28,094 bases of DNA from an archaeon (GTDB lineage: Archaea; Nanobdellota; Nanobdellia; Woesearchaeales; UBA11576): assembly GCA_020052935.1 (NCBI GenBank), contig JAGVOD010000108.1, forward strand, positions 1 through 28,094. Direction: 5' to 3'. The position numbers and the translations under genes were made by a program. The notes under the pieces were generated by a model. It made no database searches. It had not been told where the DNA came from and saw only the letters and a program-made list of their open reading frames with translations. Position 1 is the first letter of the stretch; every line of letters starts with the position of its first letter. Shown here in pieces: positions 9,746 to 26,694 of the stretch.

Positions 9746-9874
9746 GGCAGTGCCGCGCCAGGCTACGCTCGTCGTTGTTTTTCATGAAAGCAGGTCACCC
9801 CCGTAAGGGACATCCCCCCGACCTGCGTAAATAATGATGCGAAAATCGCTCCGCAAATTGGCGGCGGCACCGCC
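9746..9874 (+). repeat. Structured intergenic element, copy 1 (lacks the outermost stem)
   Basis: ggcagtgccgcgcc (9746-9759) pairs with ggcggcggcaccgcc (9860-9874). The central stem is caggtc (9791-9796) with gacctg (9820-9825), enclosing a C/G core (cccccgtaaggga cat cccccc). The blocks aggctacgctc and atgatgcgaaaatcgctccgcaaa are shared with copy 3. Confidence 0.65.
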
Positions 9875-9894
9875 TGATAACAGGATGATACTAA

Positions 9895-11883: not shown

Positions 11884-11885
11884 CA

Positions 11886-13934: not shown

Positions 13935-14411
13935 GTGCTAAAGAGGCCTCTAATATTGAGTAAGGAAGAGACAGCTGCAGCCAGCAGCACAGCGACAGCA
14001 GAGAATCCGTTCAAGCCAGACATAGTCATACCAACAACGATATTCTGCGACCGCTCACTCAGTTTTCTAGAAGCGCTTGTCGAGTACCTCAAGAGACAGC
14101 TCAACCTCTCATACCACGAGATCGCGATGCTGACCAACCGCGATGAGAGGAACATCTGGACACTGTACCACAGGGCTGAGAAGAAAAGGACAGAGCACGA
14201 GCCAGACACAAAGAAAGCGCCAGTGATGAACATACCACTAGCGGTCGTTACAGACCGTTCTGTATCGATACTTGAAGTCGTGGTAGAACACCTGCGCGAC
14301 AATACAAAACTCGCGAATCACCAGATAGCCACACTTCTGAACAGGTCAGACAAGACCATATCGACAGTATACATCCGAACAAAGAAGAAACGAACACAAA
14401 ATGCTGCGTGA
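13935..14411 (+). CDS. Small DNA-binding protein with two tandem sigma70-region-4/LuxR-like HTH repeats
   Basis: Internal duplication. Repeat 1 is DIVIPTTIFCDRSLSFLEALVEYLKRQLNLSYHEIAMLTNRDERNIWTLYHRAEKKRTE (nt 14019-14195). Repeat 2 is VMNIPLAVVTDRSVSILEVVVEHLRDNTKLANHQIATLLNRSDKTISTVYIRTKKKRTQ (nt 14223-14399). The LS-x-x-E...eIA-x-L-x-R-x-x-x-T(I/V)...(R/K)KK pattern fits region-4/GerE-type HTH. The start is GTG, and the stop TGA at 14409-14411 overlaps the ATG of the giant gene. Confidence 0.6.
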   Translation: MLKRPLILSKEETAAASSTATAENPFKPDIVIPTTIFCDRSLSFLEALVEYLKRQLNLSYHEIAMLTNRDERNIWTLYHRAEKKRTEHEPDTKKAPVMNIPLAVVTDRSVSILEVVVEHLRDNTKLANHQIATLLNRSDKTISTVYIRTKKKRTQNAA

Positions 14412-17400
14412 TGACACAATAAAGGAAAAGGAAGTAGCCATCGATAGCAGCAGCGCTGCCACGAGCACTCTCGACAGGCTGAACAAGGAAATCAGATCCG
14501 TGGCCAAGAAAGAAGAGAACAAGCTCATCGACATGCTCAAGATAACAGGACCTGCACTCGCAATAGCAGTAGTGCTACTGACAATAGGCCTGCTGGTCTT
14601 CAAGGCAGGTATAACCGGCCAGATCATAGGTGGAGGGGAATACACCACATACGTGCAGAGCATAAATGCGAACATAACAGAATCTCAGGAAAAAACCTGG
14701 GTACTGGATGCGCACCCAGAAGCATTCAACCTCAGGTCAGTAAAGATAAGCGGCCAGATGAAAGGAGAAGGCATCGCAAAAGCATACCTCATCGGCAGCA
14801 ACGGCCTCAAATACAAGATACTCGACGAGACAAAGATACAGGCAGAAGGGCTGGCGAAGATAACCGGCAGCGCAGTCAATGTGCCAGACACAGCAACACC
14901 ACCTGAAGACTCTGCTGGAAGATGGATAAAGACCTTGCTCAACTACCAGTCAGGCACCAGGTGGGACACAGACAACAACGGCATAGCCTACACCGAAGAC
15001 GGCGTCGTAGACCTGAGCGTCGCGCTGACAGAGTTCAACTGGCAGGCAGACGAAAGCAAGCTCTGCACCAAATGGGTAGTTTCATCGCAGGATAGCGGAA
15101 AAGACACCACTGTATGCAACGGCGCTGCGGACTGCTGCGGACTGGTCGGAGTTGCACCAGAGGAAGCTGCGTGGGACGAACCGCTCTATATATTCAACGG
15201 CAAATACTCTGCCACAGAGAACAACATAGTCAGGGCGCAGGTCATATTCCTCAACCAGAGCATCGGAGAAGAGACATACTTAGAGAGCACGACAGGCACT
15301 GCAGCAGAAAAGACAGTGAAGTTCATAGCGAAGCCAGTCATAGACTTCGAAGAAGTCTGCATAGACACATGCGCGCTGCCAGATGGATTAAGCAGCACAG
15401 AATACACGCTGGAGTTCGAGATAGGCGAAGGCGTGGAGATATACATAGAGAACATGACATACTCTTTAGAGGAGCTGGCAGCCCTACCTGAGAACACGAC
15501 CGCGACAGAAGAAGCCAACGTAACAGAAACAGCAAACATCACAACGAGCGATGCAGAGGGAGCCAACGTAAGCTACGAGAAGGTCAAGACAGACACCAAG
15601 TACGACGCGATAGTCGACGAGACGCTGTACGACAACTCCACAGACACCTTGATTGTGGTGTTCCACCACGACTCAGCGATACCGCTGCCCATATCAGTCA
15701 AAGGCAATGTTGAGTACACGCTCGACAGGCAGGAGAGCAGGGCAGGAGAGAACGTCACACTAACTGTCACGAACTGGAGCGATAATAGATTCAGGATAGT
15801 CGTAGGCGCGCACACAGAGGTGCTGGAGTTCGGAGAGGCCAGAAAAGTCAAGATACATCCTGAGATCAAGAACAGCAGAGGAGACAGCCAGAGGGCCAAG
15901 GTCAGGTTCGTAGACAACATACTTGATGAAACAGTTAAAGAGACCACAGAGAACGTCACCGAGACAACGATTGACGAAGGAGAATATGACCTAGAGATGA
16001 CGCTCGAGAACATGTCAGTCAAGACCATCAGGATAAATAGCGCCCAGATGTACGAAAACAGCACAGACTTCCTGAAAGTCGAGGACGTAGAGATAAACAA
16101 GATATCGGGAATCGACGCAGTCAAGTCATACGCCATAGACCCGACAGCGATAAACTTCACCAACGCGACAGTGACTGCGACTGCTACCGGAACTGCGCTG
16201 TACAAATGCAAGGAATGGAACTTCACGCTGCAGCAGTGCAACGGCACATGGACATTCCTGCAGAGCATAACGCCAGGGCAGGAGTATACGTTCACGCTGA
16301 CGCCTGAAGATCTGGGATTTGCAGAAGGAAGTCCATCAGCAGGAACACCTGATTACGGATGGATATATGATGTGAATGGCTATAATGAAGAATCCGGTAG
16401 TTATGCCAACACACAAGCAGACGACACAGCTTATTATGCAGCAGGAGAAATAAGTGCTGGTGAGTCGTTGGATTCATACATAAATCTAGAGTATAACATA
16501 ACCCAATTGAACATCTCTCCTTCACAGATAACCCGACTGCAATTCAACATAACTTATTGCCATGACGGTTCTAACTGGGCACCAGCAGCCTGCGACGGAG
16601 ATGCAGCAGAAGGAACTGTCAGCGGAGCCCAGAATGTAGAGATATACAATTGGACTTCCGGAGCCTGGACAGACATAGGAGACCTAAGGACAACTGACGG
16701 TGGCTTCACAATAACTGACAATTACAATGTAACATCAGGATTCAGCAATTATGTAAACTCAACCAACTGGATCAGAATAAGGTATGAAGCGGATTATGAT
16801 GATGGTGCTAGCCAGGATAGTTGGCTTGTTATTGACTATGCTCCTTTGACAGTTACGTACACAAATTCATCCAACTCTGTCCCGACACAAGGAACACCAA
16901 TACTCAACTCAACAACAGGAGCGAACACCACCAACGAGAACCTGACATGCTACAACCAGAGCACATACGACCCTAATGGCGACTCTGTCAAGAACATATT
17001 CAACTGGTACAAGAACTCAACAGCGATAGCCGTGCTGAACATGCCATTCGATGGCGGAAGCAACTCCACATACACGAAAGATTACTCAGGCAATAGCAAC
17101 AACGGAGCAGTCACTGGAGCCACATGGAGCAGTACCTCTGGCAGGGATGGAAAAGGAGCATACACATTCGATGGAGTCAACGACTATGTCAGCATCCCGA
17201 GCGCAGCATCCCTCAACCCGACCAGCATAACCGTGTCTGCCTGGGTAAAGACAAACAGCCTGCCCTCAACCTACCCGAGAATATTCTCGAAAGAGACGAC
17301 AACAACAGCCAACCCATACAGCATGTTCATAAGACAATCAGACAGTGTGCTGAGGTTCTGTATAGGTGACGGCTCGACAGAAGAGTGTGCAGGGACCTAC

Positions 17401-20400
17401 ATAACATCCACTGGAACCTGGCAGCATATAGTCGGCACATATGACGGCAGCACGATAAGGACATATGTCAATGGAAACCTGGATGACACCCGCGCATCCA
17501 CTATAGGCATACTCTCCAGGACAACCAACTTGCTCATAGGCAACAACCCGACCAATGCAAGGCAGTTCAACGGCACAATAGATGAGGTAAACATATACAA
17601 CAGGGCGTTGTCCGCAGCGCAGATACTCACACTATACCAGAACAGGACAGACAGGATAGTATCAAATGAGACCACTACAGGAGACGTCTGGAAGTGCGCA
17701 GTGACACCAAATGACGGGACTGTCGACGGGACGACGCTGGAATCTAACACGCTGACGATAGTGAATACGAGCAGCGGAGGCAATACCACGACAACAGCCA
17801 ACGTAACATCTACTGTCTCACAGAGCAGCGACGACGCAGAAGAGAAAACCGGAACCGGCGTCATGGACCTTGCAAGCACAGACCTCGAGCTGACTATGGA
17901 AGCGAGCGCCCAGGAAATAGGCATGAGATTCCAGAACATAAACCTCCCAAGAAGCGCAACAATAACCAACGCACATATAGAGTTCGAGATAGACGAATAC
18001 TACACAGACGCGACAAACCTCAACATATACGGCCAGGCATCAGACAATGCTGCGACCTTCTCCAGCACAGGATACGACATAACATCCAGGACGAAGACAG
18101 CAGCTTCAGTCGCGTGGAGCAGCGTATCCGCACCAGCAGTAGATGCCAAGCTGAGCACGCCGAACATCTCAGCCATAATCCAGGAGATAACCAGCAGGGC
18201 AGGATGGACTGCCAACAGCTCGCTCGTGATAATAATAAACGGAACAGGAAAGAGGACTGTGGAATCATACGATGGAGAGCCGACGGCAGCGCCGAAATTG
18301 AGGATAAACTACACAGCAGCGTCAAATACCGCACCCACGCAAGGAACGCCCTTGCTGATCTCCACGTACGGCACGAACTACACCACAGAGAACCTGACTT
18401 GCTACAACCAGTCGACATACGATGCGGATGGCGACCCTGTGAAGAGCATATTCAACTGGTACAAGAACTCAACAGCGATAGCCGTGCTGAACATGCCGTT
18501 CGAAGGAGGATCAAACGCGACTTACACCAAAGACTACAGCGGAAACAGCAATCATGGAACCGTGAGCGTAGCTACGTGGAGCAGCACCTCTGGCAGGGAT
18601 GGAAAAGGAGCATACACTTTCAACGGAAGCGCATACATAGACGCAGGAACCAGCAGCACGCTGCTGGTCGGAACACGGTTCACTCAGGAGGCTTGGATAT
18701 ACCTGACGATAACAGATGACGAGTATCACGGATTCCTAGGATATCAGCCCGCCAGCACAGAACAGAGGCCACCCTCCATCTGGGTATACCAGCGCACAAA
18801 GATACACGCAGGATTCGGCAACGGCACGACATGGGACGGATTCATAACAGGAGACATAATAACCAACAATGCATGGAACCACGTGGTCGTGACGTTCGAC
18901 GGAACCAATTATACCGTATATGTCAACGGCACTTCTAGATACAGCACAACATCCCACGCAGGAAGAGTGCCTTACGCGACGCACATCAGGAACATAGGAA
19001 GAGTTGATAACTACTTCAACGGCACCATAGATGAAGTTCGGGTGTACAACACCGCGCTCAACGCGTCACAAGTCTATTCACTGTACAGCTACGGCGCAGC
19101 AAGGATGACAAGCAGCCAGCTCACCACAGGAGATGTCTGGAAGTGCGCAGTCACGCCCAACGACGGGACTGTCGACGGGACGACGCTGGAATCTAACACG
19201 CTGACGATAAGGGCCGCGGCCGACACAACATCGCCAGGCACAATCAGCAGCCTTACTGAAAGAAGCACAGGAACGACGTGGGTATACTGGAACTGGACAA
19301 ACCCGACAGACAGCGACTTCGCGTCAGCGATAGTATACTTAAACGGGACTAACCTGGCAAACACGAGCAGTAACTACTACAACGCCACAGGACTCGCGTC
19401 ATCTACTACGTACCAGCTGACAGTCAGGACAAAAGACACAACAGGAAACGTCAACACGACAAACGTGTCCGACAACGCAGCGACACAAGACGGGACAGCA
19501 CCGCAGTACAGCAACATAAACGACCAGAACAACACCGCATACTCCACCTCGGGAAGCTACCAGTTCAACTGCACATGGACAGACAATGTCGCACTGAACC
19601 AGGTCAGGCTGGAGTTTGCCGGAACGAATTACACGCCGAGCAGCAGCGGAGACGAATATTATCACAGCATAAGCGGACTTGCAGCAGGCAACTACACATA
19701 CAAGTGGCACGCGAATGACTTTGTAGGCAATGCCAACCAGACCAGCACAAGGACGTTCACAATCAACAAGGCAGGCGTCGCGCTTACACTGACAGCAAGC
19801 CCTGCCTGGAACAATACATACGGAACACAGACATCAGTGAACTGCACTGCAAATACTTCAGTGACCACCCAGCTTTATAGGAACGGAACACAGACAAGCA
19901 AGCCAGACACGCAGACGTTGGCTGCAAGCGCCTATCTATACTTGTGCAACTTCACAGACACACAGAACCATACAGGAACAGCTCAGAACAGCACACTGAC
20001 AATAAATAAGGCAAGCTCATCGGTCACTTTGCTGCTGAACAGCACTGCTGGAAATATGAACACCACAATGCCTGCAACAATAAACATAACAGGCACCAAG
20101 ACAAGCGGCGACAGCGTTGCGATATACCTCTACAGGAACGGGACACCCATCAACTCAGGATTCTCGCCGCTGACCAATGTCTCGCTTTACAGCACAGCAG
20201 CATACTACAACATAACCGCGATATACCCTGAAAGCCAGAACTACACCTCATCAAGCGATACACACTGGCTGACCATAAGCGATACCACCTCCCCATCCAG
20301 CATATCCAACTTGGGAGAGAGCGGAGCAGGAGCCAACTGGATAAGATGGACCTGGACAAACCCGAGCGACGCAGACTTCAGCCAGGGAATAATATACCTG

Positions 20401-23400
20401 AACGGGACCAACATGGCGAATACCAGCAACAACAACTACAACGCAACAGGACTGAGCGGGTACACAAGCTACAGGCTCACAGTCCACACCAAGGACACCA
20501 CCGGCAACGTCAACAACACAGACGTGTCCGACAACGCAATGACGCTCGACACACTGCTACCGCAGTACAGCAACATACAAGACCAGAACAACACAGTATA
20601 CACATCCGGCGGGACGTACCAGTTCAACGCGACCTGGACAGACAACGTAGCAGTGAATGAAGTCAAGTTCGAGTTCAATGGCGTCAATTATACCAACCCG
20701 AGCGCAAACGGCAATGAATACTACATATCGATGAGCAACCTCGCTGCAGGAAGCTACACATACAGATGGCACGCGAACGACTTCCTCGGCAACTCGAACA
20801 GCACGCCAACGAGGACATTTGTCGTTGCGAAAGGGACTGCGACGCTCAGCCTATCAGCGACGCCAGGATGGAGCACGACCTACGGGATGCAGACAACGGT
20901 GAACTGCAGCGGAAACGCCGCGACGCAGCTCTACAGGAACGGCACGCTCGTATCGATACCGGACACCCAGACACTGGCGGCAGTCAGCCACCAGTACATA
21001 TGCAACGCCAGCGAGACGACCAACTACAGCGCGACATCAACAAACAACACGCTGACCATAAGCAAGGCAGCATCTTCACTCGAGCTGCTGTTGAACGGGA
21101 CAGACTCCGATATCATTATAGAAAAACTATCGAACGCAAACATCACCGGGACAAAGACAACCGGAGACAATGTCGCGATATACCTCTACAGGAACGGCAC
21201 GCTGATCAACTCAGGCATATCTCCACTGACAAACACGTCACAATACTCCTCTGTAGCGGCATACAACATCACAGTCACCTATACTGAGAGCCAGAACTAC
21301 ACAGCAAGCAGCCATACACACACCATATCCGTAAATGACACCACGCCGCCAGGCACTGTAAGCGGAATCGCAGAATCTAGCGCAGGAACAAGTTGGATCA
21401 CGTGGAACTGGACAAATCCTGCAGAAAGCGACTTCAGCCAGGTGATAATATACGTGAACGGGACCAATGTAGCCAATACAAGCAATAATTACTACAACGC
21501 CACAGGCCTCAACACGTATACGACATATGAGATAACGATCAACACCAAGGACACGTATGGCAATGTCAATACAAACAACGTCGCAGATACTGCAACGACA
21601 TTGGACAACACGCCTCCGACGTATTCTGGGCTCAATGACGAAAACGGCACAACATACGTGCCGATCAAGGATTACCAGTTCAACGCGACATGGACAGACA
21701 ACGTAGCAGTCGATGAAGTGAAGTTCGAATTCGACGGAGTCAACTATACCAACCCGAGCGTAACTGGCGATGAATACTACATCTCACTGAGCAACCTCGC
21801 AGCAGGAAGCCACACCTACAAGTGGCATGCGAGCGACACCGCAGGAAACTGGAACAACACTGGCACGATAAGCTTCACGATAGAGAAAGCAGCCACAGCA
21901 CTCAACATAACAGCAATACCTGGCTGGACAACAACATACGGAACACAGACGACAGTAGCCTGCTACGCAGACAACAATGAAGTGGTGGAACAGCTATACA
22001 GGAATGCAACGTCTGTAACAGCGCCAGACACCCAGACACTCGCAGGAGGAAGCTATAATTATACTTGCAGCGCGGCAGCGACGCAGAACTATTCATCGGC
22101 AGAGACCAGCGACACACTGACTGTCCAGAAGGCGACGCCAGAGATAACACTCGTGCTCAACGGAAGCGAAGAGAACATAACTATCGAGGTCGGCAGCTAC
22201 GTGAATGAGACCGGACTGCATGACCACACCTGCCTGCTCGAGATGTATGAATCAGCAATACTGGTGAAGTCAGGCAGCAGCCCGCTCACGCAACTGACGC
22301 AATACAACACCCTCGGAACATACAACGTCACATTGAGGCATCCGGAGACACAGAACTATACGAGCATCGAAGAGACACTGTGGGTGACTGTGCAGGACAC
22401 CACGGCGCCGACGGTCTCGCTCATCGCGCCAGCAGATAACGCGACAATAGGCGGCAGCACGCAGACATTCATGTTCAACTTCACAGACAACCATCACTCT
22501 ACTGCAGACTGCACGCTGTACATCAACGACACGCCCAGCGGGACGAACAGCAGCGCATCCGCGGGGACGACAATATCAATAACCAACAGCACCCTGGCTG
22601 AAGGAGAGAACAACTTGTATGTCAACTGCAGCGACGGATCCGGCAACACAGGACAGAGCGGGACAAGGACGCTGAATGTAGACAGGACGCCGCCAGACAT
22701 CGAGGAACTGATACCTGAGCAAGGAGATATCGTCGGCTATGTCACGCTGATAGACATACACTCCGCCGACTCCCTGGCAGGCGTGCACATAACCCGCTAC
22801 GAGATAAGGAACTCCTCGGGCAACGTGATAACGTCAGGGTCAAATACCACAGACGACCTGCATGAGAACTGGAACACCACAACATCCCCGGACGGGAACT
22901 ACACCATGACAGCGTACGTCAACGACACTGTCGGCAACACAGCCAATGCCTCAACAGAGTTCACGGTGAGCAACACCCTGCCGTACATACAGGTACTCGA
23001 GCCAGAGTATGACAACGAGAAGTTCAACTCGGACTTCAACCTCGACATCTGGTGCCAGGACAACAACATCGACACGTCGATGTACAACGTGACAGACAAC
23101 GTCGGAGGAGTGGTCCAGTCAGGCTTAGACGCATCCGCAAACATGACGAGCCACCACTTCACAGACCTCGTCAATGTATCATCAATCATTGACGGGAACT
23201 ACACGATAAACGTATACGCGAACGACACAACAGGCTACGTGACAACAAAGACCCGCACATTCATCATAGACAAGACCGCTCCTTCCTACTCTGCAATAGG
23301 CGAGCCTGCTGACCCAAGCACGTACTCTCCTTCGGCGAGCTACAACTTCAGCATAAACTGGACAGACAACAGGTCAGTAAGCTCGGTGGTGCTGGAATTC

Positions 23401-26400
23401 AACGGAACGAACTACACAAGCATAACGCAGTCAGGCAACAAGTATTCTAAAGCGTTGTCATCCCTTGCAGGAGGGATATATAACTACAGATGGCATGCGA
23501 GAGATGAAGTCGGAAACTGGAACAGCACTGCCCTGCTCAACTTCACCATAAATCCAGCAACAGCATCTTGCGTGCTAGCATTCGACAAGTCATCACCGCA
23601 GACCTACGGAACAGCGATAAAGGCGAACTGCAGCTGCTCAGGCGAGAGTGCATGGGCAACGCTATGGAGAGACCACACAAACGTGGATGGAACAGAGGAC
23701 AACCTGCTCGTGACATTGGCTGCAGGCAGCTATGCATACGAATGCAACAGGAGCACGAGCAACAACTACACAAGCGCGTCAGACTCTGGAACGTTTGTCA
23801 TCAACAAGGCTTTGACCTTGCTGAACATGACTGCAATACCTGGCTGGAGCGGCGCGACATACGGCACAGAGACCATAGTCAGCTGCAGCGCAAACAACAA
23901 CGAGGTCGTGGAACAAATATACAGACAAGGCACGGTCGTCTCGATACCAGACACGCAGACACTGGCCGCAGGAAACCACATATACACCTGCGAAGCAGCA
24001 GACACGCAGAACTACACCGGAGAGAGCTCTGGAGAGACACTGACGATAGGCAAGGCAAACTCTTCATTGACACTCACCCTCAACGGGACAGCCAACAACC
24101 TCACGATCGAAAGGATGACTGCAGCAGACATAACCGCGACAAGGATAATAGGAACTGGCTACGTAGAACTATACAGGAACGGCACCCTGCTAGGCAGCGG
24201 GACATCGGTCACGGACGTATCAACATACAACACCGCGACGATGTATAACATAACCGCAACATACAATGCGACGCAGAACCATTCATCCAGCAGGTCAACA
24301 CTGTGGCTCACGGTCAGCGATACCATACCGCCAGGCCCGATATCGAACCTGCTGCTGCTGAACAAGGGACAGAACTACCTCTACTGGGTATGGACCAACC
24401 CGACAGACGCAGACTTCCACCACACCAACGTCTACCTGGACGGAGTGTTCAAGACCAGCACATCAGCTGAATACTATTATGCGACAGGCCTGAACCACTC
24501 CACCAACTACACGCTGTCGCTCAGGACAGTCGACGCTTCAGGGACGCTGGGAAGCTGGGTGAATGACACACAGATGACCCAGTACAACTGCACAGAGAGC
24601 TGGGCTACACTATATACTACTTGCAGGAGCAACGACACTCGCACAAAATATTATAATGACACAACCGGCTGCGGAACGACACACTTCCTGCCTGCAGACA
24701 ACGGCACGATAACGACATGCGACTACATAATAAGTACAAAGTTCAACGGCAGCACGACGAATTTTACCAGGGACAGCCTCATAGACCTAAGTGGCGTAGT
24801 TCTAGATATAACATCTTATGGAAAGATAGAGTTCCTTGAGAGCATAACAATAGCAAGAAGCCTCGACCTCGACACATACGCAAACATAGGGCCCAACCAC
24901 GCGTCCATCAGCTCAACACCGCTTGGAGAGTTCAACAAGTCAGCAAGGATAACCATCTACAATGTGAATTTCACAGTGCTGAGAATAATGGCCGACGGAG
25001 AAGAGTGCAACAGCACAGTATGCACGCAGATGAACTACTCGAACGGCACATTCGTGTTCAACGTGACGCACTTCACCAACTACTCTGTAGAGGAAGGCCC
25101 GTACTGCGGCGATTCTTCCTGCAATGGAGGGGAGACATGCAACTCATGCACTGCTGACTGCGGAAGCTGCCCGCTCGGAGGCGGTGGAGGAGGCGGAGGC
25201 GGTGGAGGAGGCGGAGGCAGCGCCAGGGAAGAGAAGAAATGCGAGCCCAACTGGCTCTGCTACTCATGGAACCCTTGCGTGAATTACGTGCAGAACAGGA
25301 AATGCTTCGATACCAACGGCTGCGGCACAGAAGAAGGCATGCCTGAGCTCGAGAAGAGCTGCATACTCGGCTGCGCAGAAAGATGGGCCTGCGGAGACTG
25401 GGGCAAGTGCACAGAGGCAGGAGTCCAGACACGCACATGCAATGATTTGGCAAAGTGCGGTTCAGAATCAAGGAAACCGCTGACTGTCCAGCCATGCGAG
25501 TATGACTTCTGCAGCGACGACAAGCAGAACAACGGCGAACAAGGAATAGACTGCGGCGGAAGCTGCAGGGACTGCACAAGGGAAGAGCTGCAGGAGGCAG
25601 AGATGAAGAAGAACCTCCTCACAGGCGAAGCGATAACAGTCGCACCATACGAACAGCCCAACCCGTTCTACCTGATGCCGCTATTGCTGCTGCTCGTGGT
25701 CTTGATCGCAGTCATAGCGCTGCACAAAGCAGACATATCTGAAAAGATGAAGAAAGTGCTGACAGCACTGCACTTCCTGCTGATAATAGGCATACTTGTG
25801 ATGCTGCTGCTGACATTCAACATAGCTCAGCCCACAGGGGCAGCAGTGGTTGAATTCGTGGGTGAATCAGGTGCATCAGGCATCGCACTGACAGTCCTCG
25901 TCTCAGCACTGCTGCTAGGAGGCATGGCATACGTCGCGGTGAGCAGAGGCCTCGTCGACCTCGGAGATATGGAGCAGTACTACTCGAAGTCTAAATACTG
26001 GATAGGATACGCAGTCCAGAAGATAGAATGGTCAAAGAAGAAAAAGATCAGGACAAACATAGAGGTCGAGACGAGATACGAGACTCCGACGACGCAACCA
26101 CAGGCAGCTTTGAAGACACCAACCCTGCCATCAGAGAAGAAAACCGCAACAGCAGAGACTGCAGTAGCGACCGCAGTGACGACTGCGCGGCCGGATGGGA
26201 AGAGAATGACTGCTGCGGAGACAATAGCTCCGAAAGAGCAGATGATGTTCGGCAGCATAATGACAGAGATCAAAGACCTGAACTTGAAGATAGAGGAGCT
26301 GAAAAAGGAAGTCGTGAGTGTAGCACCGGCGAGGCCAGAAAGCGTCAAGGAAAAGAGACAGATAGAGGCCAAGAATGCAAAAGACCTCATGCCAAAGCCA

Positions 26401-26694
26401 GCCCTCGTGCCAAAGGCAGGAATCAAAGCGCCATTCCAAAAAATATCTCCGCTGAAAGTGCTGCGCGTCCAGCCAAGGACAATAATAACCGAAAGGAAAC
26501 CAGTCATCAAGCCTGTCACGAATCCAATCATGCCGAAAGCAGCGGCAAAGCCTGTGCAGCCTGCAGCAAGGCCCAAGATCGATGCGAAAATCGATGCTAA
26601 GAAAGATCCGCTCAAGGCAAGGTTCAGGACAGACGACCCGCTCAAGATAGCAGATATGATACTCAAGAGAAGCCAAAAGAGGCCGAGAAGATGA
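14401..26694 (+). CDS. Giant (4097 aa) doubly membrane-anchored, sequon-rich surface protein / putative adhesin
   Basis: Single 12.3-kb ORF. An N-terminal TM helix (PALAIAVVLLTIGLLVF, nt 14551-14607) follows a charged 50-aa N-terminus. Two LamG/ConA-like modules carry DYSGNSNxG..W....GRDGKGAYTF.G ... NGTIDEV.(I/V)YN.AL. FN3-like modules carry W.W.NP.D.DF....(I/V)Y(L/V)NGTN.ANTS.N.YNATGL...T.Y......D..GN. Ig-like modules carry WTDN...V..V.(L/F)EF.G.NYT. A run of Cys-rich modules, a Gly14 run, three C-terminal TM helices (about nt 25660-25945) and a 250-aa K/P/A/T-rich tail complete the protein. N-x-S/T sequons are extremely dense; for example, 6 occur in the roughly 70 residues WVYWNWT...NVSDNAATQ. 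Confidence 0.9.
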   Translation: MLRDDTIKEKEVAIDSSSAATSTLDRLNKEIRSVAKKEENKLIDMLKITGPALAIAVVLLTIGLLVFKAGITGQIIGGGEYTTYVQSINANITESQEKTWVLDAHPEAFNLRSVKISGQMKGEGIAKAYLIGSNGLKYKILDETKIQAEGLAKITGSAVNVPDTATPPEDSAGRWIKTLLNYQSGTRWDTDNNGIAYTEDGVVDLSVALTEFNWQADESKLCTKWVVSSQDSGKDTTVCNGAADCCGLVGVAPEEAAWDEPLYIFNGKYSATENNIVRAQVIFLNQSIGEETYLESTTGTAAEKTVKFIAKPVIDFEEVCIDTCALPDGLSSTEYTLEFEIGEGVEIYIENMTYSLEELAALPENTTATEEANVTETANITTSDAEGANVSYEKVKTDTKYDAIVDETLYDNSTDTLIVVFHHDSAIPLPISVKGNVEYTLDRQESRAGENVTLTVTNWSDNRFRIVVGAHTEVLEFGEARKVKIHPEIKNSRGDSQRAKVRFVDNILDETVKETTENVTETTIDEGEYDLEMTLENMSVKTIRINSAQMYENSTDFLKVEDVEINKISGIDAVKSYAIDPTAINFTNATVTATATGTALYKCKEWNFTLQQCNGTWTFLQSITPGQEYTFTLTPEDLGFAEGSPSAGTPDYGWIYDVNGYNEESGSYANTQADDTAYYAAGEISAGESLDSYINLEYNITQLNISPSQITRLQFNITYCHDGSNWAPAACDGDAAEGTVSGAQNVEIYNWTSGAWTDIGDLRTTDGGFTITDNYNVTSGFSNYVNSTNWIRIRYEADYDDGASQDSWLVIDYAPLTVTYTNSSNSVPTQGTPILNSTTGANTTNENLTCYNQSTYDPNGDSVKNIFNWYKNSTAIAVLNMPFDGGSNSTYTKDYSGNSNNGAVTGATWSSTSGRDGKGAYTFDGVNDYVSIPSAASLNPTSITVSAWVKTNSLPSTYPRIFSKETTTTANPYSMFIRQSDSVLRFCIGDGSTEECAGTYITSTGTWQHIVGTYDGSTIRTYVNGNLDDTRASTIGILSRTTNLLIGNNPTNARQFNGTIDEVNIYNRALSAAQILTLYQNRTDRIVSNETTTGDVWKCAVTPNDGTVDGTTLESNTLTIVNTSSGGNTTTTANVTSTVSQSSDDAEEKTGTGVMDLASTDLELTMEASAQEIGMRFQNINLPRSATITNAHIEFEIDEYYTDATNLNIYGQASDNAATFSSTGYDITSRTKTAASVAWSSVSAPAVDAKLSTPNISAIIQEITSRAGWTANSSLVIIINGTGKRTVESYDGEPTAAPKLRINYTAASNTAPTQGTPLLISTYGTNYTTENLTCYNQSTYDADGDPVKSIFNWYKNSTAIAVLNMPFEGGSNATYTKDYSGNSNHGTVSVATWSSTSGRDGKGAYTFNGSAYIDAGTSSTLLVGTRFTQEAWIYLTITDDEYHGFLGYQPASTEQRPPSIWVYQRTKIHAGFGNGTTWDGFITGDIITNNAWNHVVVTFDGTNYTVYVNGTSRYSTTSHAGRVPYATHIRNIGRVDNYFNGTIDEVRVYNTALNASQVYSLYSYGAARMTSSQLTTGDVWKCAVTPNDGTVDGTTLESNTLTIRAAADTTSPGTISSLTERSTGTTWVYWNWTNPTDSDFASAIVYLNGTNLANTSSNYYNATGLASSTTYQLTVRTKDTTGNVNTTNVSDNAATQDGTAPQYSNINDQNNTAYSTSGSYQFNCTWTDNVALNQVRLEFAGTNYTPSSSGDEYYHSISGLAAGNYTYKWHANDFVGNANQTSTRTFTINKAGVALTLTASPAWNNTYGTQTSVNCTANTSVTTQLYRNGTQTSKPDTQTLAASAYLYLCNFTDTQNHTGTAQNSTLTINKASSSVTLLLNSTAGNMNTTMPATINITGTKTSGDSVAIYLYRNGTPINSGFSPLTNVSLYSTAAYYNITAIYPESQNYTSSSDTHWLTISDTTSPSSISNLGESGAGANWIRWTWTNPSDADFSQGIIYLNGTNMANTSNNNYNATGLSGYTSYRLTVHTKDTTGNVNNTDVSDNAMTLDTLLPQYSNIQDQNNTVYTSGGTYQFNATWTDNVAVNEVKFEFNGVNYTNPSANGNEYYISMSNLAAGSYTYRWHANDFLGNSNSTPTRTFVVAKGTATLSLSATPGWSTTYGMQTTVNCSGNAATQLYRNGTLVSIPDTQTLAAVSHQYICNASETTNYSATSTNNTLTISKAASSLELLLNGTDSDIIIEKLSNANITGTKTTGDNVAIYLYRNGTLINSGISPLTNTSQYSSVAAYNITVTYTESQNYTASSHTHTISVNDTTPPGTVSGIAESSAGTSWITWNWTNPAESDFSQVIIYVNGTNVANTSNNYYNATGLNTYTTYEITINTKDTYGNVNTNNVADTATTLDNTPPTYSGLNDENGTTYVPIKDYQFNATWTDNVAVDEVKFEFDGVNYTNPSVTGDEYYISLSNLAAGSHTYKWHASDTAGNWNNTGTISFTIEKAATALNITAIPGWTTTYGTQTTVACYADNNEVVEQLYRNATSVTAPDTQTLAGGSYNYTCSAAATQNYSSAETSDTLTVQKATPEITLVLNGSEENITIEVGSYVNETGLHDHTCLLEMYESAILVKSGSSPLTQLTQYNTLGTYNVTLRHPETQNYTSIEETLWVTVQDTTAPTVSLIAPADNATIGGSTQTFMFNFTDNHHSTADCTLYINDTPSGTNSSASAGTTISITNSTLAEGENNLYVNCSDGSGNTGQSGTRTLNVDRTPPDIEELIPEQGDIVGYVTLIDIHSADSLAGVHITRYEIRNSSGNVITSGSNTTDDLHENWNTTTSPDGNYTMTAYVNDTVGNTANASTEFTVSNTLPYIQVLEPEYDNEKFNSDFNLDIWCQDNNIDTSMYNVTDNVGGVVQSGLDASANMTSHHFTDLVNVSSIIDGNYTINVYANDTTGYVTTKTRTFIIDKTAPSYSAIGEPADPSTYSPSASYNFSINWTDNRSVSSVVLEFNGTNYTSITQSGNKYSKALSSLAGGIYNYRWHARDEVGNWNSTALLNFTINPATASCVLAFDKSSPQTYGTAIKANCSCSGESAWATLWRDHTNVDGTEDNLLVTLAAGSYAYECNRSTSNNYTSASDSGTFVINKALTLLNMTAIPGWSGATYGTETIVSCSANNNEVVEQIYRQGTVVSIPDTQTLAAGNHIYTCEAADTQNYTGESSGETLTIGKANSSLTLTLNGTANNLTIERMTAADITATRIIGTGYVELYRNGTLLGSGTSVTDVSTYNTATMYNITATYNATQNHSSSRSTLWLTVSDTIPPGPISNLLLLNKGQNYLYWVWTNPTDADFHHTNVYLDGVFKTSTSAEYYYATGLNHSTNYTLSLRTVDASGTLGSWVNDTQMTQYNCTESWATLYTTCRSNDTRTKYYNDTTGCGTTHFLPADNGTITTCDYIISTKFNGSTTNFTRDSLIDLSGVVLDITSYGKIEFLESITIARSLDLDTYANIGPNHASISSTPLGEFNKSARITIYNVNFTVLRIMADGEECNSTVCTQMNYSNGTFVFNVTHFTNYSVEEGPYCGDSSCNGGETCNSCTADCGSCPLGGGGGGGGGGGGGGSAREEKKCEPNWLCYSWNPCVNYVQNRKCFDTNGCGTEEGMPELEKSCILGCAERWACGDWGKCTEAGVQTRTCNDLAKCGSESRKPLTVQPCEYDFCSDDKQNNGEQGIDCGGSCRDCTREELQEAEMKKNLLTGEAITVAPYEQPNPFYLMPLLLLLVVLIAVIALHKADISEKMKKVLTALHFLLIIGILVMLLLTFNIAQPTGAAVVEFVGESGASGIALTVLVSALLLGGMAYVAVSRGLVDLGDMEQYYSKSKYWIGYAVQKIEWSKKKKIRTNIEVETRYETPTTQPQAALKTPTLPSEKKTATAETAVATAVTTARPDGKRMTAAETIAPKEQMMFGSIMTEIKDLNLKIEELKKEVVSVAPARPESVKEKRQIEAKNAKDLMPKPALVPKAGIKAPFQKISPLKVLRVQPRTIITERKPVIKPVTNPIMPKAAAKPVQPAARPKIDAKIDAKKDPLKARFRTDDPLKIADMILKRSQKRPRR
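16873..17760 (+). repeat. LamG-containing segment, copy 1 (intragenic duplication)
   Basis: NSVPTQGTPILNST...NLTCYNQSTYDPNGDSVKNIFNWYKNSTAIAVLNMPFDGG...TTGDVWKCAVTPNDGTVDGTTLESNTLTI. The flanks are nearly identical at nucleotide level to copy 2, with a 50-nt stretch (atattcaactggtacaag...ctgaacatgcc) and a 48-nt stretch (gacgggactgtcgac...ctgacgata) both identical. Confidence 0.8.
18325..19209 (+). repeat. LamG-containing segment, copy 2 (intragenic duplication)
   Basis: NTAPTQGTPLLIST...NLTCYNQSTYDADGDPVKSIFNWYKNSTAIAVLNMPFEGG...TTGDVWKCAVTPNDGTVDGTTLESNTLTI. The central LamG core is strongly diverged from copy 1, while the flanks are conserved. Confidence 0.8.
19222..22395 (+). repeat. Three tandem modules of about 353 aa (FN3-like domain plus three Ig-like domains each)
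   Basis: Module starts are DTTSPGTISSL (19222), DTTSPSSISNL (20281) and DTTPPGTVSGI (21337), with the next boundary DTTAPTVSL at 22396. The periods are 1059, 1056 and 1059 nt. A degenerate fourth set follows at about 23269-24590. Confidence 0.8.
25177..25218 (+). repeat. Gly14 linker encoded by an imperfect GGN repeat
   Basis: gga ggc ggt gga gga ggc gga ggc ggt gga gga ggc gga ggc is in frame, lying between the CGDSSCNGGETCNSCTADCGSC module and the W.C..W..C modules. Confidence 0.85.

What the first reader, a model, noticed from the sequence alone, without database searches (positions are those of the whole stretch)
14401..26694. 4097-aa doubly anchored, sequon-saturated modular surface protein (candidate host-attachment adhesin)
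Seen in sequence: one 12.3-kb ORF takes up 44% of the window.
- Topology inferred from hydrophobic segments: a charged N-terminus is followed by one TM helix, an ectodomain of about 3700 aa, three closely spaced TM helices and a 250-aa K/P/A/T-rich tail. The odd number of C-terminal helices places both termini on the same (cytoplasmic) side, so the ectodomain is a loop tethered at both ends.
- The ectodomain combines LamG/ConA-like lectin modules, FN3-like and Ig-like modules, Cys-rich W.C..W..C......R.C.D...CG modules and a C.D..QN.GE.G.DCGG.C module.
- N-x-S/T sequons occur every few residues.

Established knowledge: archaeal surface proteins are heavily N-glycosylated, and giant surface proteins are a hallmark of episymbiotic DPANN and CPR lineages.

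Inference: this is a glycosylated adhesin or cell-cell contact protein whose cytoplasmic tail could couple to intracellular partners.
Basis: partly seen in the sequence, partly recalled or inferred. Interest (0 to 1): 0.7.

Follow-up and report, generated by a model that had tools for sequence, protein, structure and literature searches.

The report
Giant archaeal adhesin with self-cleavage module

Summary
The ORF (14401-26694, +, 4,097 aa) is real. By hydropathy it has one N-terminal and three C-terminal TM helices. It contains two LamG domains, Ig-like and weak FN3-like repeats, and the Cys-rich modules described. It has 165 N-x-S/T sequons, twice the compositional expectation (z = 11) and about 10 times the density in neighbouring proteins, but the median spacing is 14 residues, not "every few".

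Homologues are all from DPANN MAGs (Woesearchaeota, Nanoarchaeota and others). They share a fixed chassis: an N-terminal TM plus a beta-sandwich N-module, a variable middle, and a membrane-proximal cassette with a 3-TM anchor. The closest orthologues also share a gene cluster: SpoIIM-like, double-HTH, giant, a 224-aa paralogue of the N-module, and a 155-aa TM protein.

New here: aa 3441-3566 is homologous to the Nup98/Nup145 autoproteolytic domain (peptidase S59, ZU5 superfamily).
- Foldseek: the top 9 PDB hits are all nucleoporin autoproteolytic domains.
- hhalign: 94% probability, E = 9e-8.
- Pfam: 27 of 40 family members hit PF04096.
- The HF|T motif aligns on Nup98's HF|S cleavage site.

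The adhesin role is plausible but only inferred. Self-cleavage at F3558|T3559 is a testable hypothesis (about 0.4). I rate it a new variant of a known kind, of moderate-to-good interest.

The parts
12824..13666 (+). SpoIIM-like multi-pass membrane protein (280 aa), the conserved upstream neighbour
   Evidence: Pfam PF01944, E = 9.8e-15. It is 62% and 44% identical to the syntenic genes in L003 and L001. A homologue lies near giant homologues in 12 loci.
13935..14411 (+). 158-aa protein with two HTH repeats; its end overlaps the giant's start by 11 nt
   Evidence: Sigma70_r4_2, sub-threshold, E = 1.8e-5. It is 72% identical to the L003 gene in the same position, and an internal repeat is visible. 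Homologues sit next to giant homologues in 20 loci.
14401..26694 (+). Giant surface-protein gene, 4,097 aa
   Evidence: Orthologues appear.
14401..14556 (+). N-terminal charged segment (aa 1-52), predicted cytoplasmic
   Evidence: 10 K+R and 10 D+E, no sequon. A segment of similar length is conserved in P0011-P0013. AF2 models it as one helix continuous with TM1, but at low confidence.
14557..14619 (+). TM1 (aa 53-73), a signal anchor or an uncleaved signal sequence
   Evidence: Hydropathy 2.52. Nearly all family members have an N-terminal hydrophobic helix.
14620..16335 (+). Family-defining N-module (aa 74-645): beta-sandwich domains, including a 4-Cys insert and the 'YAIDP...YKCxxWxF' sub-domain
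   Evidence: Alignment A3. AF2 gives pLDDT 75-90 in the beta domains. There is no specific PDB match. The sub-domain finds 174 relatives in genome contigs; the 79 loci kept are DPANN-type MAGs by title or, for those titled 'Methanosarcinales', apparently mislabelled.
17170..17625 (+). LamG / ConA-like domain 1 (aa 924-1075)
   Evidence: PF13385, E = 2.5e-54, two stretches.
18622..19077 (+). LamG / ConA-like domain 2 (about aa 1408-1559)
   Evidence: This is the second PF13385 stretch. It was placed using the internal repeat 814-1120 ~ 1297-1603.
19216..22395 (+). Three super-repeats of about 353 aa (aa 1606-2665), each an FN3-like domain followed by Ig-like domains
   Evidence: The repeats are 45-67% identical to each other. 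Big_7 reaches 26.3 bits, Big_13 is weak and fn3 is sub-threshold.
22396..23280 (+). Ig-like block (aa 2666-2960)
   Evidence: Big_13 46.4 bits, Big_7 34.2 bits and Big_3_3 33 bits, all above their Pfam cut-offs.
23281..24549 (+). Partial fourth super-repeat plus a final FN3-like domain (aa 2961-3383)
   Evidence: Internal repeat matches and weak Big_7 and Big_13 hits.
24721..25098 (+). Nup98-type (peptidase S59 / ZU5-superfamily) autoproteolytic-like domain (aa 3441-3566)
   Evidence: - Pfam PF04096: E = 1.9e-4, 22 bits, below the cut-off of 28.4.
- Family level: 27 of 40 members hit PF04096, best E = 1.8e-10.
- AF2 pLDDT is 85-93 over this domain.
- The top 9 Foldseek PDB hits are all Nup116, Nup98 or Nup145N autoproteolytic domains.
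- Profile A5 against PDB returns only nucleoporin autoproteolytic domains, best E = 5.6e-5.
- hhalign gives probability 94.4% and E = 9.3e-8.
25069..25077 (+). H3557-F3558-T3559, the predicted scissile bond F|T
   Evidence: It aligns on Nup98 H862-F863-S864. Across 450 family copies F/W is 97% conserved and T/S 96%.
25105..25170 (+). CGDxxCxGxExCxxCxxDCGxC module (aa 3569-3590)
   Evidence: Regex match. It is conserved in P0001 and P0003-P0006.
25177..25218 (+). Gly14 linker (aa 3593-3606)
   Evidence: Orthologues also carry a Gly run here. AF2 confidence is low.
25252..25461 (+). Two W.C..W..C...R.C.D...CG modules (aa 3618-3642 and 3662-3687)
   Evidence: Regex match. Neither Pfam nor PDB gives a hit.
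25510..25566 (+). CxDxxQNxGExGxDCGGxC module (aa 3704-3722)
   Evidence: Regex match. It recurs next to the TM anchor in many DPANN proteins.
25666..25944 (+). Three-helix membrane anchor (aa 3756-3848), preceded by NLLTGEAITVxPYExPNP and carrying a conserved His in TM3
   Evidence: Hydropathy, charge distribution and an alignment of about 12 homologues.
25945..26691 (+). K/A/P/T-rich tail (aa 3849-4097), predicted cytoplasmic
   Evidence: 54 K+R against 28 D+E and no sequon. It is similar only in P0002 and P0150 and differs in P0001 and P0004.
26949..27623 (+). 224-aa TM protein, a stand-alone paralogue of the first domain of the giant's N-module
   Evidence: 51% and 29% identical to the syntenic genes in L003 and L001, and it matches giant-type N-modules. 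Alignment A3. Found in 12 loci.
27627..28094 (+). 155-aa TM protein, the conserved downstream partner
   Evidence: 59% identical to the syntenic L003 gene. Also present in L039 and L010.

Best explanation
The gene encodes a membrane-anchored, heavily N-glycosylatable cell-surface protein of a Woesearchaeota-type DPANN archaeon. It belongs to a DPANN-specific family built on a fixed chassis with an exchangeable middle.

Shown:
- The chassis has (i) an N-terminal cytoplasmic segment, one TM helix and a conserved beta-sandwich N-module, and (ii) a conserved membrane-proximal cassette. The cassette runs: Nup98-type autoproteolytic-like domain, small Cys-rich modules, a poly-Gly hinge, then a three-helix anchor with a conserved His.
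- The middle differs between relatives. Here it holds two LamG lectin-like domains and about 2,000 residues of FN3/Ig-like rod.
- The gene sits in a conserved cluster: a SpoIIM-like membrane protein, a double-HTH protein, a small paralogue of the N-module and a 155-aa TM protein.

Inferred:
- The rod projects the LamG and jelly-roll modules away from the cell, where they bind glycans or proteins on another cell (host or neighbour). That would make it an adhesin.
- The Nup98-type domain self-cleaves by an N-O acyl shift between F3558 and T3559. The large outer fragment and the 539-residue membrane stub would then be held together only non-covalently, as in Nup98/Nup96, GAIN-domain receptors and SEA-domain mucins. 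This would give a joint that can part under load.
- I put the adhesin role at about 0.6 and actual self-cleavage at about 0.4.
For: Reality and architecture.

DPANN family with conserved ends and a variable middle:
- P0004 is a 1,180-aa mini version with the same N-TM, N-module, FN3, autoproteolytic-like domain, Cys modules and 3 TMs.
- P0011-P0015 share the N-module but carry LamG, FN3 or beta-helix cargo.
- There are 174 relatives of the N-module sub-domain; the 79 loci kept are DPANN-type MAGs, with several paralogues per genome.
- The 1 + 3 TM layout is seen in at least 8 homologues.

Synteny. The full five-gene cluster is present in L003 and L039, and a partial one in L010, L079 and L082.

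Extracellular location: sequons are enriched 2-fold over shuffles (z = 11.3) and about 10-fold over neighbouring proteins, and are absent from both predicted cytoplasmic ends. Charges follow the positive-inside rule.

Nup98-type domain:
- Pfam PF04096: E = 1.9e-4 for this copy. At family level 27 of 40 members match, best E = 1.8e-10.
- AF2 pLDDT is 85-93 over the domain.
- The top 9 Foldseek PDB hits are all Nup116, Nup98 or Nup145N autoproteolytic domains, probability 1.00, TM-score about 0.5.
- A 40-sequence profile against PDB returns 19 hits, all nucleoporin autoproteolytic domains, best E = 5.6e-5.
- hhalign gives 94.4% probability and E = 9.3e-8, with HFT aligned on HFS.

The conservation pattern matches what cleavage needs:
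- In 450 domain copies F/W is 97%, T/S 96% and Y/F 98% conserved, whereas the -2 His is only 35% conserved.
- In Nup98, H862A and H862Q barely affect cleavage, while the Phe and the Ser are essential. FIIND domains cleave at SF|S (PMC3210808).
- The PDB entry title for C. thermophilum Nup145N ('APD T994A mutant', 5hb6) shows that a Thr is the residue mutated to block cleavage there.

Literature:
- The ZU5/GPS/Nup98 superfamily occurs in large bacterial surface proteins (PMC3482391).
- LamG and giant Ig-rich surface proteins of DPANN are proposed to be host-attachment factors (PMC10266531).
Against: - There is no binding, expression or proteomic evidence. The adhesin function rests on domain content and analogy.
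- The window's own autoproteolytic-like domain scores below Pfam's gathering cut-off (22 against 28.4 bits).
- Structural similarity is moderate (TM-score about 0.5, rmsd 6-7 A).
- The same domain occurs up to 11 times in one protein. That fits a plain structural spacer at least as well as serial self-cleavage.
- Conserved F, T/S and Y could simply be core residues of the last beta-strand.
- If TM1 is retained, cleavage would not release anything.
- The N-module has no recognisable fold relatives, so its role is unknown.
Confidence: 0.55

Rival explanations
1. It is the same surface protein, but the Nup98-like domain is a non-cleaving beta-sandwich spacer. The polypeptide stays covalently continuous from TM1 to the 3-TM anchor, and the HFT motif is only a structural strand.
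For: - The domain is used as a repeated module, up to 11 copies per protein, alternating with beta-helix modules.
- The -2 His is replaced in 65% of copies.
- The window copy is sub-threshold for PF04096.
- From my own knowledge, not checked here: yeast Nup116 has this fold without a downstream partner.
Against: - The two residues that cleavage strictly needs (F/W at -1, T/S at +1) are 96-97% conserved across 450 copies, although the sequences are only 30-50% identical overall.
- The dispensable His is the variable position, exactly as in Nup98 and FIIND mutagenesis.
Confidence: 0.35
2. The N-terminal helix is a cleaved Sec signal peptide. The mature protein would then be anchored only by the C-terminal 3-TM module, a flagpole rather than a loop, with the conserved N-module at the distal tip as the binding head.
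For: - P0004 and many family members have a short basic N-terminus followed by one hydrophobic helix, which looks like a signal peptide.
- Small residues (A-G, T-G) follow TM1.
- A conserved distal head with a variable stalk is common in adhesins.
Against: - The closest relatives (P0011-P0013) conserve a pre-TM segment of 50-70 aa, far longer than normal signal-peptide n-regions.
- The 224-aa paralogue is itself a TM protein with the same domain, which suggests that this domain works at the membrane.
Confidence: 0.3
3. It is an envelope-building or spacing protein, such as an S-layer-associated or canopy protein, rather than an adhesin for another cell.
For: - It is heavily sequon-rich, like archaeal S-layer glycoproteins.
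- It is membrane-anchored.
- It lies in a conserved cluster with other small membrane proteins.
Against: - Length ranges from 1,180 to more than 4,000 aa, and cargo is swapped between close relatives.
- There are several paralogues per genome. That is typical of variable adhesins, not lattice proteins.
- LamG lectin-like domains are present.
Confidence: 0.15
4. It is a mechanosensory or contact receptor analogous to adhesion GPCRs or Notch. Ligand pull would separate the cleaved halves, and the exposed stub, 3-TM module and tail would signal, possibly to the adjacent HTH protein.
For: - The order is adhesion modules, then an autoproteolytic-type domain, then a multi-pass anchor with a conserved intramembrane His, then a cytoplasmic tail.
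- A dedicated HTH gene overlaps the start codon and is conserved in 20 loci.
Against: - The tail is not conserved, and is only about 20 aa in P0004.
- No signalling domain was found.
- GAIN domains are much weaker structural matches than nucleoporin autoproteolytic domains (E about 0.2).
- The HTH protein may simply regulate transcription.
Confidence: 0.1
5. The ORF is an assembly chimera of collapsed repeats, or a pseudogene.
For: It is a long repetitive gene from what is presumably a metagenome. Another gene in the window (biotin carboxylase) carries a frameshift.
Against: - The frame stays open for 12.3 kb.
- Repeats are only 67-78% identical at DNA level.
- Both ends and the gene order are matched collinearly by independent MAGs (L003, L039, P0011, P0150).
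Confidence: 0.03

Closest known systems
Giant and LamG/Ig-rich surface proteins of DPANN archaea (for example nanohaloarchaeal SVXNc LamG proteins and the 'SPEARE' giants; PMC10266531)
   Same: - Host lineage is DPANN.
- The protein is very large and membrane-anchored.
- The ectodomain has LamG and tandem Ig/FN-like domains.
- A proposed role in attachment to a host cell.
   Different: - There is no VirB4/TraG-like ATPase or any other enzymatic domain.
- It has a different conserved chassis: the N-module, a Nup98-like domain, Cys modules and a 3-TM anchor.
- It sits in a different gene neighbourhood (SpoIIM-like, HTH, 224-aa and 155-aa genes).
Nup98/Nup145N/Nup116 autoproteolytic domain (Pfam PF04096, MEROPS S59)
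   Same: - The fold matches (Foldseek top 9).
- Profile homology is significant.
- The C-terminal strand motif HF|(S/T)xY aligns residue for residue.
- A Thr at the cleavage position also occurs in C. thermophilum Nup145N, judging from the title of PDB entry 5hb6 ('T994A mutant').
   Different: - It is extracellular and sits inside an archaeal glycoprotein.
- It contains a conserved Cys pair and sequons.
- Nup98's insertion around K814 is missing.
- It is often repeated many times per protein.
- Cleavage has not been demonstrated.
ZU5-superfamily autopeptidase domains in bacterial polymorphic toxins and large surface proteins (Zhang et al. 2012, PMC3482391)
   Same: An autoproteolytic-type domain of the ZU5/GPS/Nup98 superfamily sits at the base of a long prokaryotic surface filament. 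That paper proposes it cleaves the filament at the cell surface.
   Different: - There are no RHS repeats, SpvB domain, toxin domain or immunity genes.
- The host is archaeal.
- The domain is closest to the nucleoporin branch rather than to ZU5 proper.
GAIN-domain adhesion GPCRs and polycystin-1, and SEA-domain mucins
   Same: The logic of the layout is the same: adhesion repeats, then a juxtamembrane self-cleaving domain, then a multi-pass or single-pass anchor. In those proteins the fragments stay non-covalently bound and can be separated by force.
   Different: - It has three TM helices, not 7 or 11.
- GAIN is only a weak structural match (E about 0.2).
- There is no G-protein machinery in archaea.
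- The resemblance is in working principle, not family membership.
Archaeal PGF-CTERM / archaeosortase-processed surface glycoproteins
   Same: An archaeal N-glycosylated surface protein with a Pro-containing motif (PYEQPNPFY) immediately before a hydrophobic helix.
   Different: The helix is not C-terminal. Two more TM helices and a 249-aa tail follow it, and there is no PGF tripeptide. It is not a member.

Membership tests
Laminin_G_3 / ConA-like lectin superfamily (PF13385) | Profile match above the Pfam gathering score | tested here: met
   184 bits against a cut-off of 27.6, E = 2.5e-54, two copies.
Bacterial Ig-like domains (Big_7 PF17957, Big_13 PF19077, Big_3_3 PF13750) | Profile match above the gathering score | tested here: met
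   In aa 2666-2960, Big_13 scores 46.4 (cut-off 27), Big_7 34.2 (cut-off 24.1) and Big_3_3 33 (cut-off 27).
Fibronectin type III (PF00041) | Profile match above the gathering score | tested here: inconclusive
   Best scores are 11-17.5 bits against a cut-off of 25. The repeated W.W.NP.D.DF...Y.ATGL pattern looks FN3-like by eye only.
Peptidase S59 / Nup98 autoproteolytic domain (PF04096) | Sequence-profile match | tested here: inconclusive
   The window copy scores 22 bits, E = 1.9e-4, below the gathering score of 28.4. At family level 27 of 40 members match, best E = 1.8e-10. Profile against PDB gives E = 5.6e-5, with nucleoporins only. hhalign gives 94.4% probability, E = 9.3e-8.
Peptidase S59 / Nup98 autoproteolytic domain (PF04096) | Autoproteolytic-domain fold | tested here: met
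   The AF2 domain has pLDDT 85-93. The top 9 Foldseek PDB hits are all Nup116, Nup98 or Nup145N autoproteolytic domains, probability 1.00, target-normalised TM-score 0.46-0.57.
Peptidase S59 / Nup98 autoproteolytic domain (PF04096) | H-F-(S/T) at the end of the domain, with a buried Phe, a hydroxyl nucleophile and a following aromatic residue | tested here: met
   H3557-F3558-T3559-N-Y3561 aligns on Nup98 H862-F863-S864-K-Y866. Family conservation is F/W 97%, T/S 96%, Y/F 98%.
Peptidase S59 / Nup98 autoproteolytic domain (PF04096) | Actual autoproteolysis at the F|S/T bond | not testable with these tools
   This needs protein chemistry or proteomics.
Nanohaloarchaeal SPEARE-type giant proteins | VirB4/TraG-like ATPase domain and an adjacent secretion ATPase gene (PMC10266531) | tested here: not met
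   No ATPase family appears in the Pfam or NCBIfam scans of the giant or its neighbours.
Adhesion GPCR / GAIN | GAIN fold followed by a 7-TM domain | tested here: not met
   There are three TM helices. GAIN structures rank far below nucleoporin autoproteolytic domains (E about 0.2).
PGF-CTERM archaeosortase substrates | PGF motif, one TM helix and a short basic tail at the extreme C-terminus | tested here: not met
   PNPFY precedes TM2, but two more TM helices and 249 residues follow.
TafC fimbrial protein (NCBIfam NF052521) | Equivalog score of at least 410 bits | tested here: not met
   89.6 bits, a partial match over the LamG region only.
Thrombospondin type-1-like repeats (considered for the W.C..W..C modules) | Profile match to TSP_1 or a related family | tested here: not met
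   No Pfam hit except DUF7107 at E = 0.17. The PDB sequence search found only Gly-linker artefacts. The AF2 confidence for these modules is low.

The most novel reading that the evidence does not exclude
DPANN giant surface proteins are self-processing. The Nup98-type module cuts the chain at HF|T. In this protein that gives a break-away or force-sensing joint between a 3,500-residue glycosylated adhesive arm and a 3-TM stub. In relatives with 8-11 copies it would give a string of non-covalently linked segments.

This large extracellular archaeal family has about 4,000 clusters at 50% identity. It would be a prokaryotic reservoir from which the eukaryotic Nup98/Nup145 autoproteolytic domain could have been recruited.
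Probability: 0.3. Interest if true: 0.85.

Novelty: new variant of a known kind. Interest (0 to 1): 0.6.

Why it matters
- DPANN archaea depend on physical contact with hosts, yet the molecules that make the contact are largely unknown. This locus defines a recurrent, recognisable chassis (N-module, swappable cargo, Nup98-like domain, 3-TM anchor, four partner genes). It can be searched for and compared across DPANN genomes.
- It gives one sharply testable biochemical prediction: cleavage at F3558|T3559.
- If these modules do self-cleave, archaeal adhesins would use the same 'cut but stay attached' principle as animal adhesion GPCRs, Notch-like receptors and mucins.
- The nuclear-pore autoproteolytic domain would then gain a large archaeal extracellular sister group, which bears on where nuclear-pore parts came from.
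- If they do not cleave, this is an ordinary, if very large, member of the known class of DPANN surface glycoproteins.

Tried and rejected
Searches that gave little or failed:
- The exact-sequence look-up of the giant found nothing on record.
- The full-length homologue search timed out, so the ends were searched separately.
- Whole-protein self-BLAST reported only the diagonal. Chunked BLAST was needed.
- AF2 of the N-module followed by Foldseek against PDB gave only generic multi-beta-sandwich hits with rmsd above 20 A, so no functional lead.
- The Cys-rich modules gave no Pfam family (DUF7107, E = 0.17), only poly-Gly linker artefacts against PDB, and low AF2 confidence. A TSP1-like reading, recalled from memory, is not supported.
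- The third word-indexed protein search, with the domain profile, returned only 2 hits. The exhaustive representative search was informative instead.
- The search for related loci with the gappy alignment A3 failed. It was redone with a compact sub-domain alignment.

Readings considered and rejected:
- SPEARE or a T4SS-linked giant: no ATPase domain.
- Polymorphic toxin: no toxin, RHS or immunity genes.
- PGF-CTERM substrate: the motif is not C-terminal.
- TafC fimbrial protein: 89.6 bits against a cut-off of 410.
- Class III (pilin-like) signal peptide: no K/R-G | hydrophobic cleavage motif before TM1.
- Assembly collapse: the repeats are too divergent.

Two stretches of it (64 and 18 residues) are confirmed by HMMER's printout of PDB 2q5x.
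Full report
**1. The observation**

The window contains one uninterrupted ORF at 14401..26694 on the + strand: ATG start, 4,097 codons, 43.8% of the window.

Hydropathy. A 19-residue Kyte-Doolittle scan finds exactly four strongly hydrophobic segments:

| Segment | Residues | Mean hydropathy |
|---|---|---|
| TM1 | 53-71 | 2.52 |
| TM2 | 3756-3774 | 3.02 |
| TM3 | 3786-3804 | 2.87 |
| TM4 | 3828-3846 | 2.19 |

Charges. The flanking charges follow the positive-inside rule for an N-in/C-in topology:
- The nine-residue TM2-TM3 loop is ADISEKMKK.
- The TM3-TM4 loop has no K or R.
- The 249-residue tail has 54 K+R against 28 D+E. Its composition is K 14.9, A 11.2, P 9.6 and T 8.0%.

Domains. Pfam confirms two Laminin_G_3 domains (E = 2.5e-54). 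Big_7, Big_13 and Big_3_3 Ig-like domains are above their cut-offs in aa 2666-2960. fn3 is only sub-threshold.

Sequons. N-x(not P)-S/T occurs 165 times in the 3,684-residue ectodomain.
- 2,000 composition-preserving shuffles give 81.5 +/- 7.4 (z = 11.3).
- The reversed motif occurs 85 times.
- Fifteen other proteins of the window average 0.42 per 100 aa, against 4.5 here.
- There are none in aa 1-52 or in aa 3601-4097.

The enrichment is real and sits on the predicted outside. However, median spacing is 14 residues, so 'every few residues' is an overstatement.

Repeats. The internal repeats are 45-77% identical at protein level and 67-78% at DNA level. They comprise one duplicated LamG block of about 310 aa, and 3.5 copies of a super-repeat of about 353 aa (FN3-like plus Ig-like domains). 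A collapsed-repeat artefact is therefore unlikely, although read mapping could not be done.

**2. Whose gene it is, and its family**

The exact protein is not on record. Searches with the C-terminal 708 aa and the N-terminal 810 aa returned only a handful of proteins. All those that carry an organism name are from DPANN MAGs: Woesearchaeota, Nanoarchaeota and Aenigmarchaeota.

Conserved and variable parts:
- P0004 (Nanoarchaeota/Woesearchaeota MAG, 1,180 aa) is a miniature of the window protein. It has a short basic N-terminus, a TM helix, the same N-terminal module, one FN3-like domain, the same membrane-proximal cassette, three TM helices and a tail of about 20 residues.
- P0011-P0015 share the N-terminal ~640 residues but continue with different cargo: LamG, FN3 arrays or a parallel beta-helix.
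- So the two ends are the conserved chassis and the middle is exchangeable.

Distribution. A scan of one genome per species with the most conserved sub-domain of the N-module (YAIDP...YKCxxWxF) found 174 relatives. The 79 loci kept are DPANN-type MAGs (some titled 'Methanosarcinales', apparently mislabelled), often with three or four paralogues per genome. Almost every such protein starts with a hydrophobic helix. At least eight complete homologues also end in a multi-helix anchor.

**3. Gene neighbourhood**

Upstream lies a metabolic operon that looks unrelated. It encodes acyl-CoA carboxylase subunits, KAS III, a dehydratase, a reductase and an enoyl-CoA hydratase.

The immediate neighbours are conserved with the gene:

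| Position | Gene | Evidence |
|---|---|---|
| 12824-13666 | SpoIIM-like membrane protein | |
| 13935-14411 | 158-aa protein with two HTH repeats; its stop overlaps the giant's start by 11 nt | |
| 14401-26694 | the giant | |
| 26949-27623 | 224-aa TM protein | |
| 27627-28094 | 155-aa TM protein | |

- The same order is found in the Woesearchaeota loci L003 and L039, and in part in L010, L079, L082 and L001.
- Across the fetched loci, homologues of these neighbours lie in the same locus as a giant homologue as follows: HTH protein 20 loci, SpoIIM-like protein 12, 224-aa protein 12, 155-aa protein 3.
- The 224-aa protein is a stand-alone paralogue of the first beta domain of the giant's N-module, without the Cys-containing insert.
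- This points to a small membrane-associated system rather than an isolated adhesin gene.

**4.

Scanning aa 3390-3600 alone gave a sub-threshold but nearly full-length match to Pfam PF04096, the Nup98-96 autopeptidase S59 (E = 6.4e-4). By eye, GTFVFNVTHFTNYSV resembles human Nup98 GSWVFKVSHFSKYGL, where autoproteolysis occurs at HF|S. I tested this in four ways.

(a) Structure.
- AF2 of aa 3385-3750, with an alignment of ten homologues, models aa ~3444-3574 at pLDDT 85-93.
- Foldseek against the PDB ranks nine nucleoporin autoproteolytic domains first (Nup116, Nup98, Nup145N). Probability is 1.00, E is 1e-4 to 6e-3, and target-normalised TM-score is 0.46-0.57.
- Everything else, including GAIN domains, has E of 0.09 or worse.

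(b) Exhaustive profile search.
- The domain family has 3,999 representative clusters at E <= 1e-3 and 2,636 at E <= 1e-10. It is often present 3-11 times in proteins of 2,000-7,600 aa.
- The few that carry names are 'parallel beta-helix repeat' proteins, one of them assigned to Pacearchaeota.

(c) A 40-sequence profile of diverse copies.
- Against all PDB sequences it returns 19 hits at E <= 10. Every one is a Nup98, Nup116 or Nup145 autoproteolytic domain, best E = 5.6e-5.
- 27 of the 40 members individually hit PF04096 and nothing else, best E = 1.8e-10.

(d) hhalign.
- That profile against the human Nup98 autoproteolytic domain gives 94.4% probability, E = 9.3e-8, over 101 columns. H-F-T is placed on H862-F863-S864 and Y on Y866.
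Two stretches of it (64 and 18 residues) are verified by HMMER's printout of 2q5x.

I regard homology to the Nup98-type domain as established. It is a branch of what Zhang et al. call the ZU5 superfamily (ZU5, GPS, Nup96/98), which they also saw in large bacterial surface proteins (PMC3482391).

**5. Does it cleave?**

This cannot be tested here, so I looked at what is conserved. In 450 domain copies from the 150 best representatives:

| Position | Residues | Conservation |
|---|---|---|
| -2 | H / S / G / Q / R | 35 / 24 / 19 / 9 / 6% |
| -1 | F or W | 97% |
| +1 | T or S | 96% |
| +3 | Y or F | 98% |

For cleavage. This is the pattern expected from mutagenesis in the superfamily (PMC3210808):
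- Nup98 H862A and H862Q barely affect cleavage.
- The buried Phe and the hydroxyl nucleophile are essential.
- CARD8 and NLRP1 cleave at SF|S.
- A Thr at the cleavage position has precedent, judging from the title of the C. thermophilum Nup145N entry 5hb6 ('APD T994A mutant').

Against cleavage:
- The same residues could be conserved for packing of the last strand.
- The domain's use as a many-times-repeated module would mean serial fragmentation of those giants (eight HFT copies in P0017, P0018 has seven).
- The Nup98 insertion around K814 is absent.

I put self-cleavage of the window protein at about 0.4.

**6. How it most likely works**

Shown:
- A DPANN membrane protein whose ~3,700-residue ectodomain is sequon-rich.
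- The ectodomain contains two LamG domains, jelly-roll-like modules (a weak GH114_assoc hit) and about 2,000 residues of Ig/FN3-type rod.
- It ends in a conserved cassette: a Nup98-like domain, CGDxxCxGxExC..DCGxC, Gly14, two W.C..W..C modules and CxDxxQNxGExGxDCGGxC.
- Then come NLLTGEAITVxPYExPNP and three TM helices with a near-invariant His in TM3.

Inferred:
- The rod displays lectin-like modules for binding to another cell's surface. This is the role already proposed for LamG and giant Ig-rich proteins of DPANN (PMC10266531).
- The variable length and cargo, and the several paralogues per genome, fit adhesins better than lattice proteins.
- If TM1 is retained, the ectodomain is a loop anchored at both ends. 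The conserved pre-TM segment of 50-70 aa in the closest relatives favours retention. Cleavage at F3558|T3559 would then turn the loop into an arm latched non-covalently to a 539-residue stub.
- If TM1 is removed, the arm would be held on the cell only through that latch, as in SEA-domain mucins and GAIN-domain receptors, and could be left behind under load.
- The cytoplasmic tail is not conserved between orthologues, so I see no basis for a specific intracellular coupling.

**7. Comparison with what is known; novelty**

- As a class, a giant, glycosylated, LamG/Ig-rich surface protein of a DPANN archaeon with a presumed adhesin role is known.
- It is not a SPEARE-type protein (no ATPase), not a polymorphic toxin, not a PGF-CTERM substrate and not TafC.
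- In the literature I could search I did not find this chassis described: the 1 + 3 TM layout, the conserved five-gene cluster, or the presence and abundance of a Nup98-type domain in DPANN surface proteins. My searches cover only open-access text.
- I therefore call it a new variant of a known kind.

**8. What led nowhere**

- The N-module has no informative fold match.
- The Cys modules have no family or structural match.

**Unexplained**

- A motif (I/L/P)TGx(A/I/S)(I/V) occurs five times against 0.18 expected (the pattern was defined after seeing it). Four of the five lie at predicted outer membrane interfaces or in the N-module. It recurs in the 224-aa paralogue and in small TM proteins of related loci.
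- The conserved His in TM3 is also unexplained.

Noticed in passing
window 4125-12608: An operon encodes an alpha/beta hydrolase, a FabA/MaoC-like dehydratase, KAS III, an enoyl-CoA hydratase, an SDR reductase, a carboxyltransferase, BCCP and biotin carboxylase. BirA is convergent at 11886-12608 (-). This is an ACP-less fatty-acid / acyl-CoA carboxylase gene set in a DPANN-type genome. From my own knowledge, DPANN lineages usually have few lipid and biosynthetic genes.
   Followed up: no
window about 10560-10600 (ORFs 10328-10675 and 10747-11883): The biotin carboxylase gene is split by a frameshift. The Biotin_carb_N domain is in frame 2. The sequence continues ('DAIHPGYGFLAEN...') in frame 1 into the ATP-grasp ORF. 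This is a sequencing error, a pseudogene or recoding.
   Followed up: partly
window 337-4074 (-): A 1,245-aa ORF has no Pfam match at E <= 0.01 and no hydrophobic N-terminus noticed. Its function is unknown.
   Followed up: no
giant aa 71, 154, 3740 and 3811 (nt about 14611, 14860, 25618 and 25831); also window 26949-27623: A motif (I/L/P)TGx(A/I/S)(I/V) occurs five times in the giant against 0.18 expected from shuffles; the pattern was defined post hoc. Four copies lie just outside TM1, inside the N-module, 15 aa before TM2 and just after TM3. It is also present in the 224-aa paralogue and in small TM proteins of L001 and L003. It could be a strand zipper or a sorting/processing signal.
   Followed up: partly
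giant aa about 3791 (TM3), nt about 25771: A near-invariant His sits in the middle of TM3 (LTxxHxLLI) across about 12 homologues. An 'ALHK' motif at the end of TM2 is also conserved.
   Followed up: no
L003 2319-10004 and 10001-12625: The closest syntenic orthologue (Woesearchaeota GCA_043819495.1) is called as two genes of 2,561 and 874 aa. They overlap by 4 nt, at the point matching window aa ~3136-3141. This is a frameshift or stop, or a genuine split.
   Followed up: no
P0016-P0039 (representative proteins, not in the window): Proteins of 2,000-7,600 aa carry 3-11 Nup98-like domains. The -2 residue tends to be shared by the copies within one protein: all HFT in P0017, five of six YWT in P0019, five of six SWS in P0039. 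The few named ones are annotated as parallel beta-helix repeat proteins, one from Pacearchaeota.
   Followed up: partly
giant aa 3553-3556 (FNVT) and 3509-3512 (NKSA): Two sequons inside the Nup98-like domain are themselves highly conserved. In N-V-T/S directly before HF|T, N is 79% and T/S 92% conserved. The N, S and A of N-K-S-A are invariant in the seven-sequence alignment A1. Glycans may sit next to the putative scissile bond.
   Followed up: no
L032 5320-7473 and L066 259-2400: Neighbouring proteins carry six tandem copies of the 'DCGGxC' Cys module before a single TM helix.
   Followed up: no
L012, L016, L018, L020 and L081 (OZ246410.1, a 774-kb 'chromosome'), among others: Many MAGs titled 'uncultured Methanosarcinales archaeon' carry this DPANN-type family. 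Given the small genome size, these titles look like taxonomic mislabels.
   Followed up: no
L003 14955-17319: A LAGLIDADG homing-endonuclease-like gene and an rve integrase lie just downstream of the orthologous cluster, hinting at local mobility.
   Followed up: no
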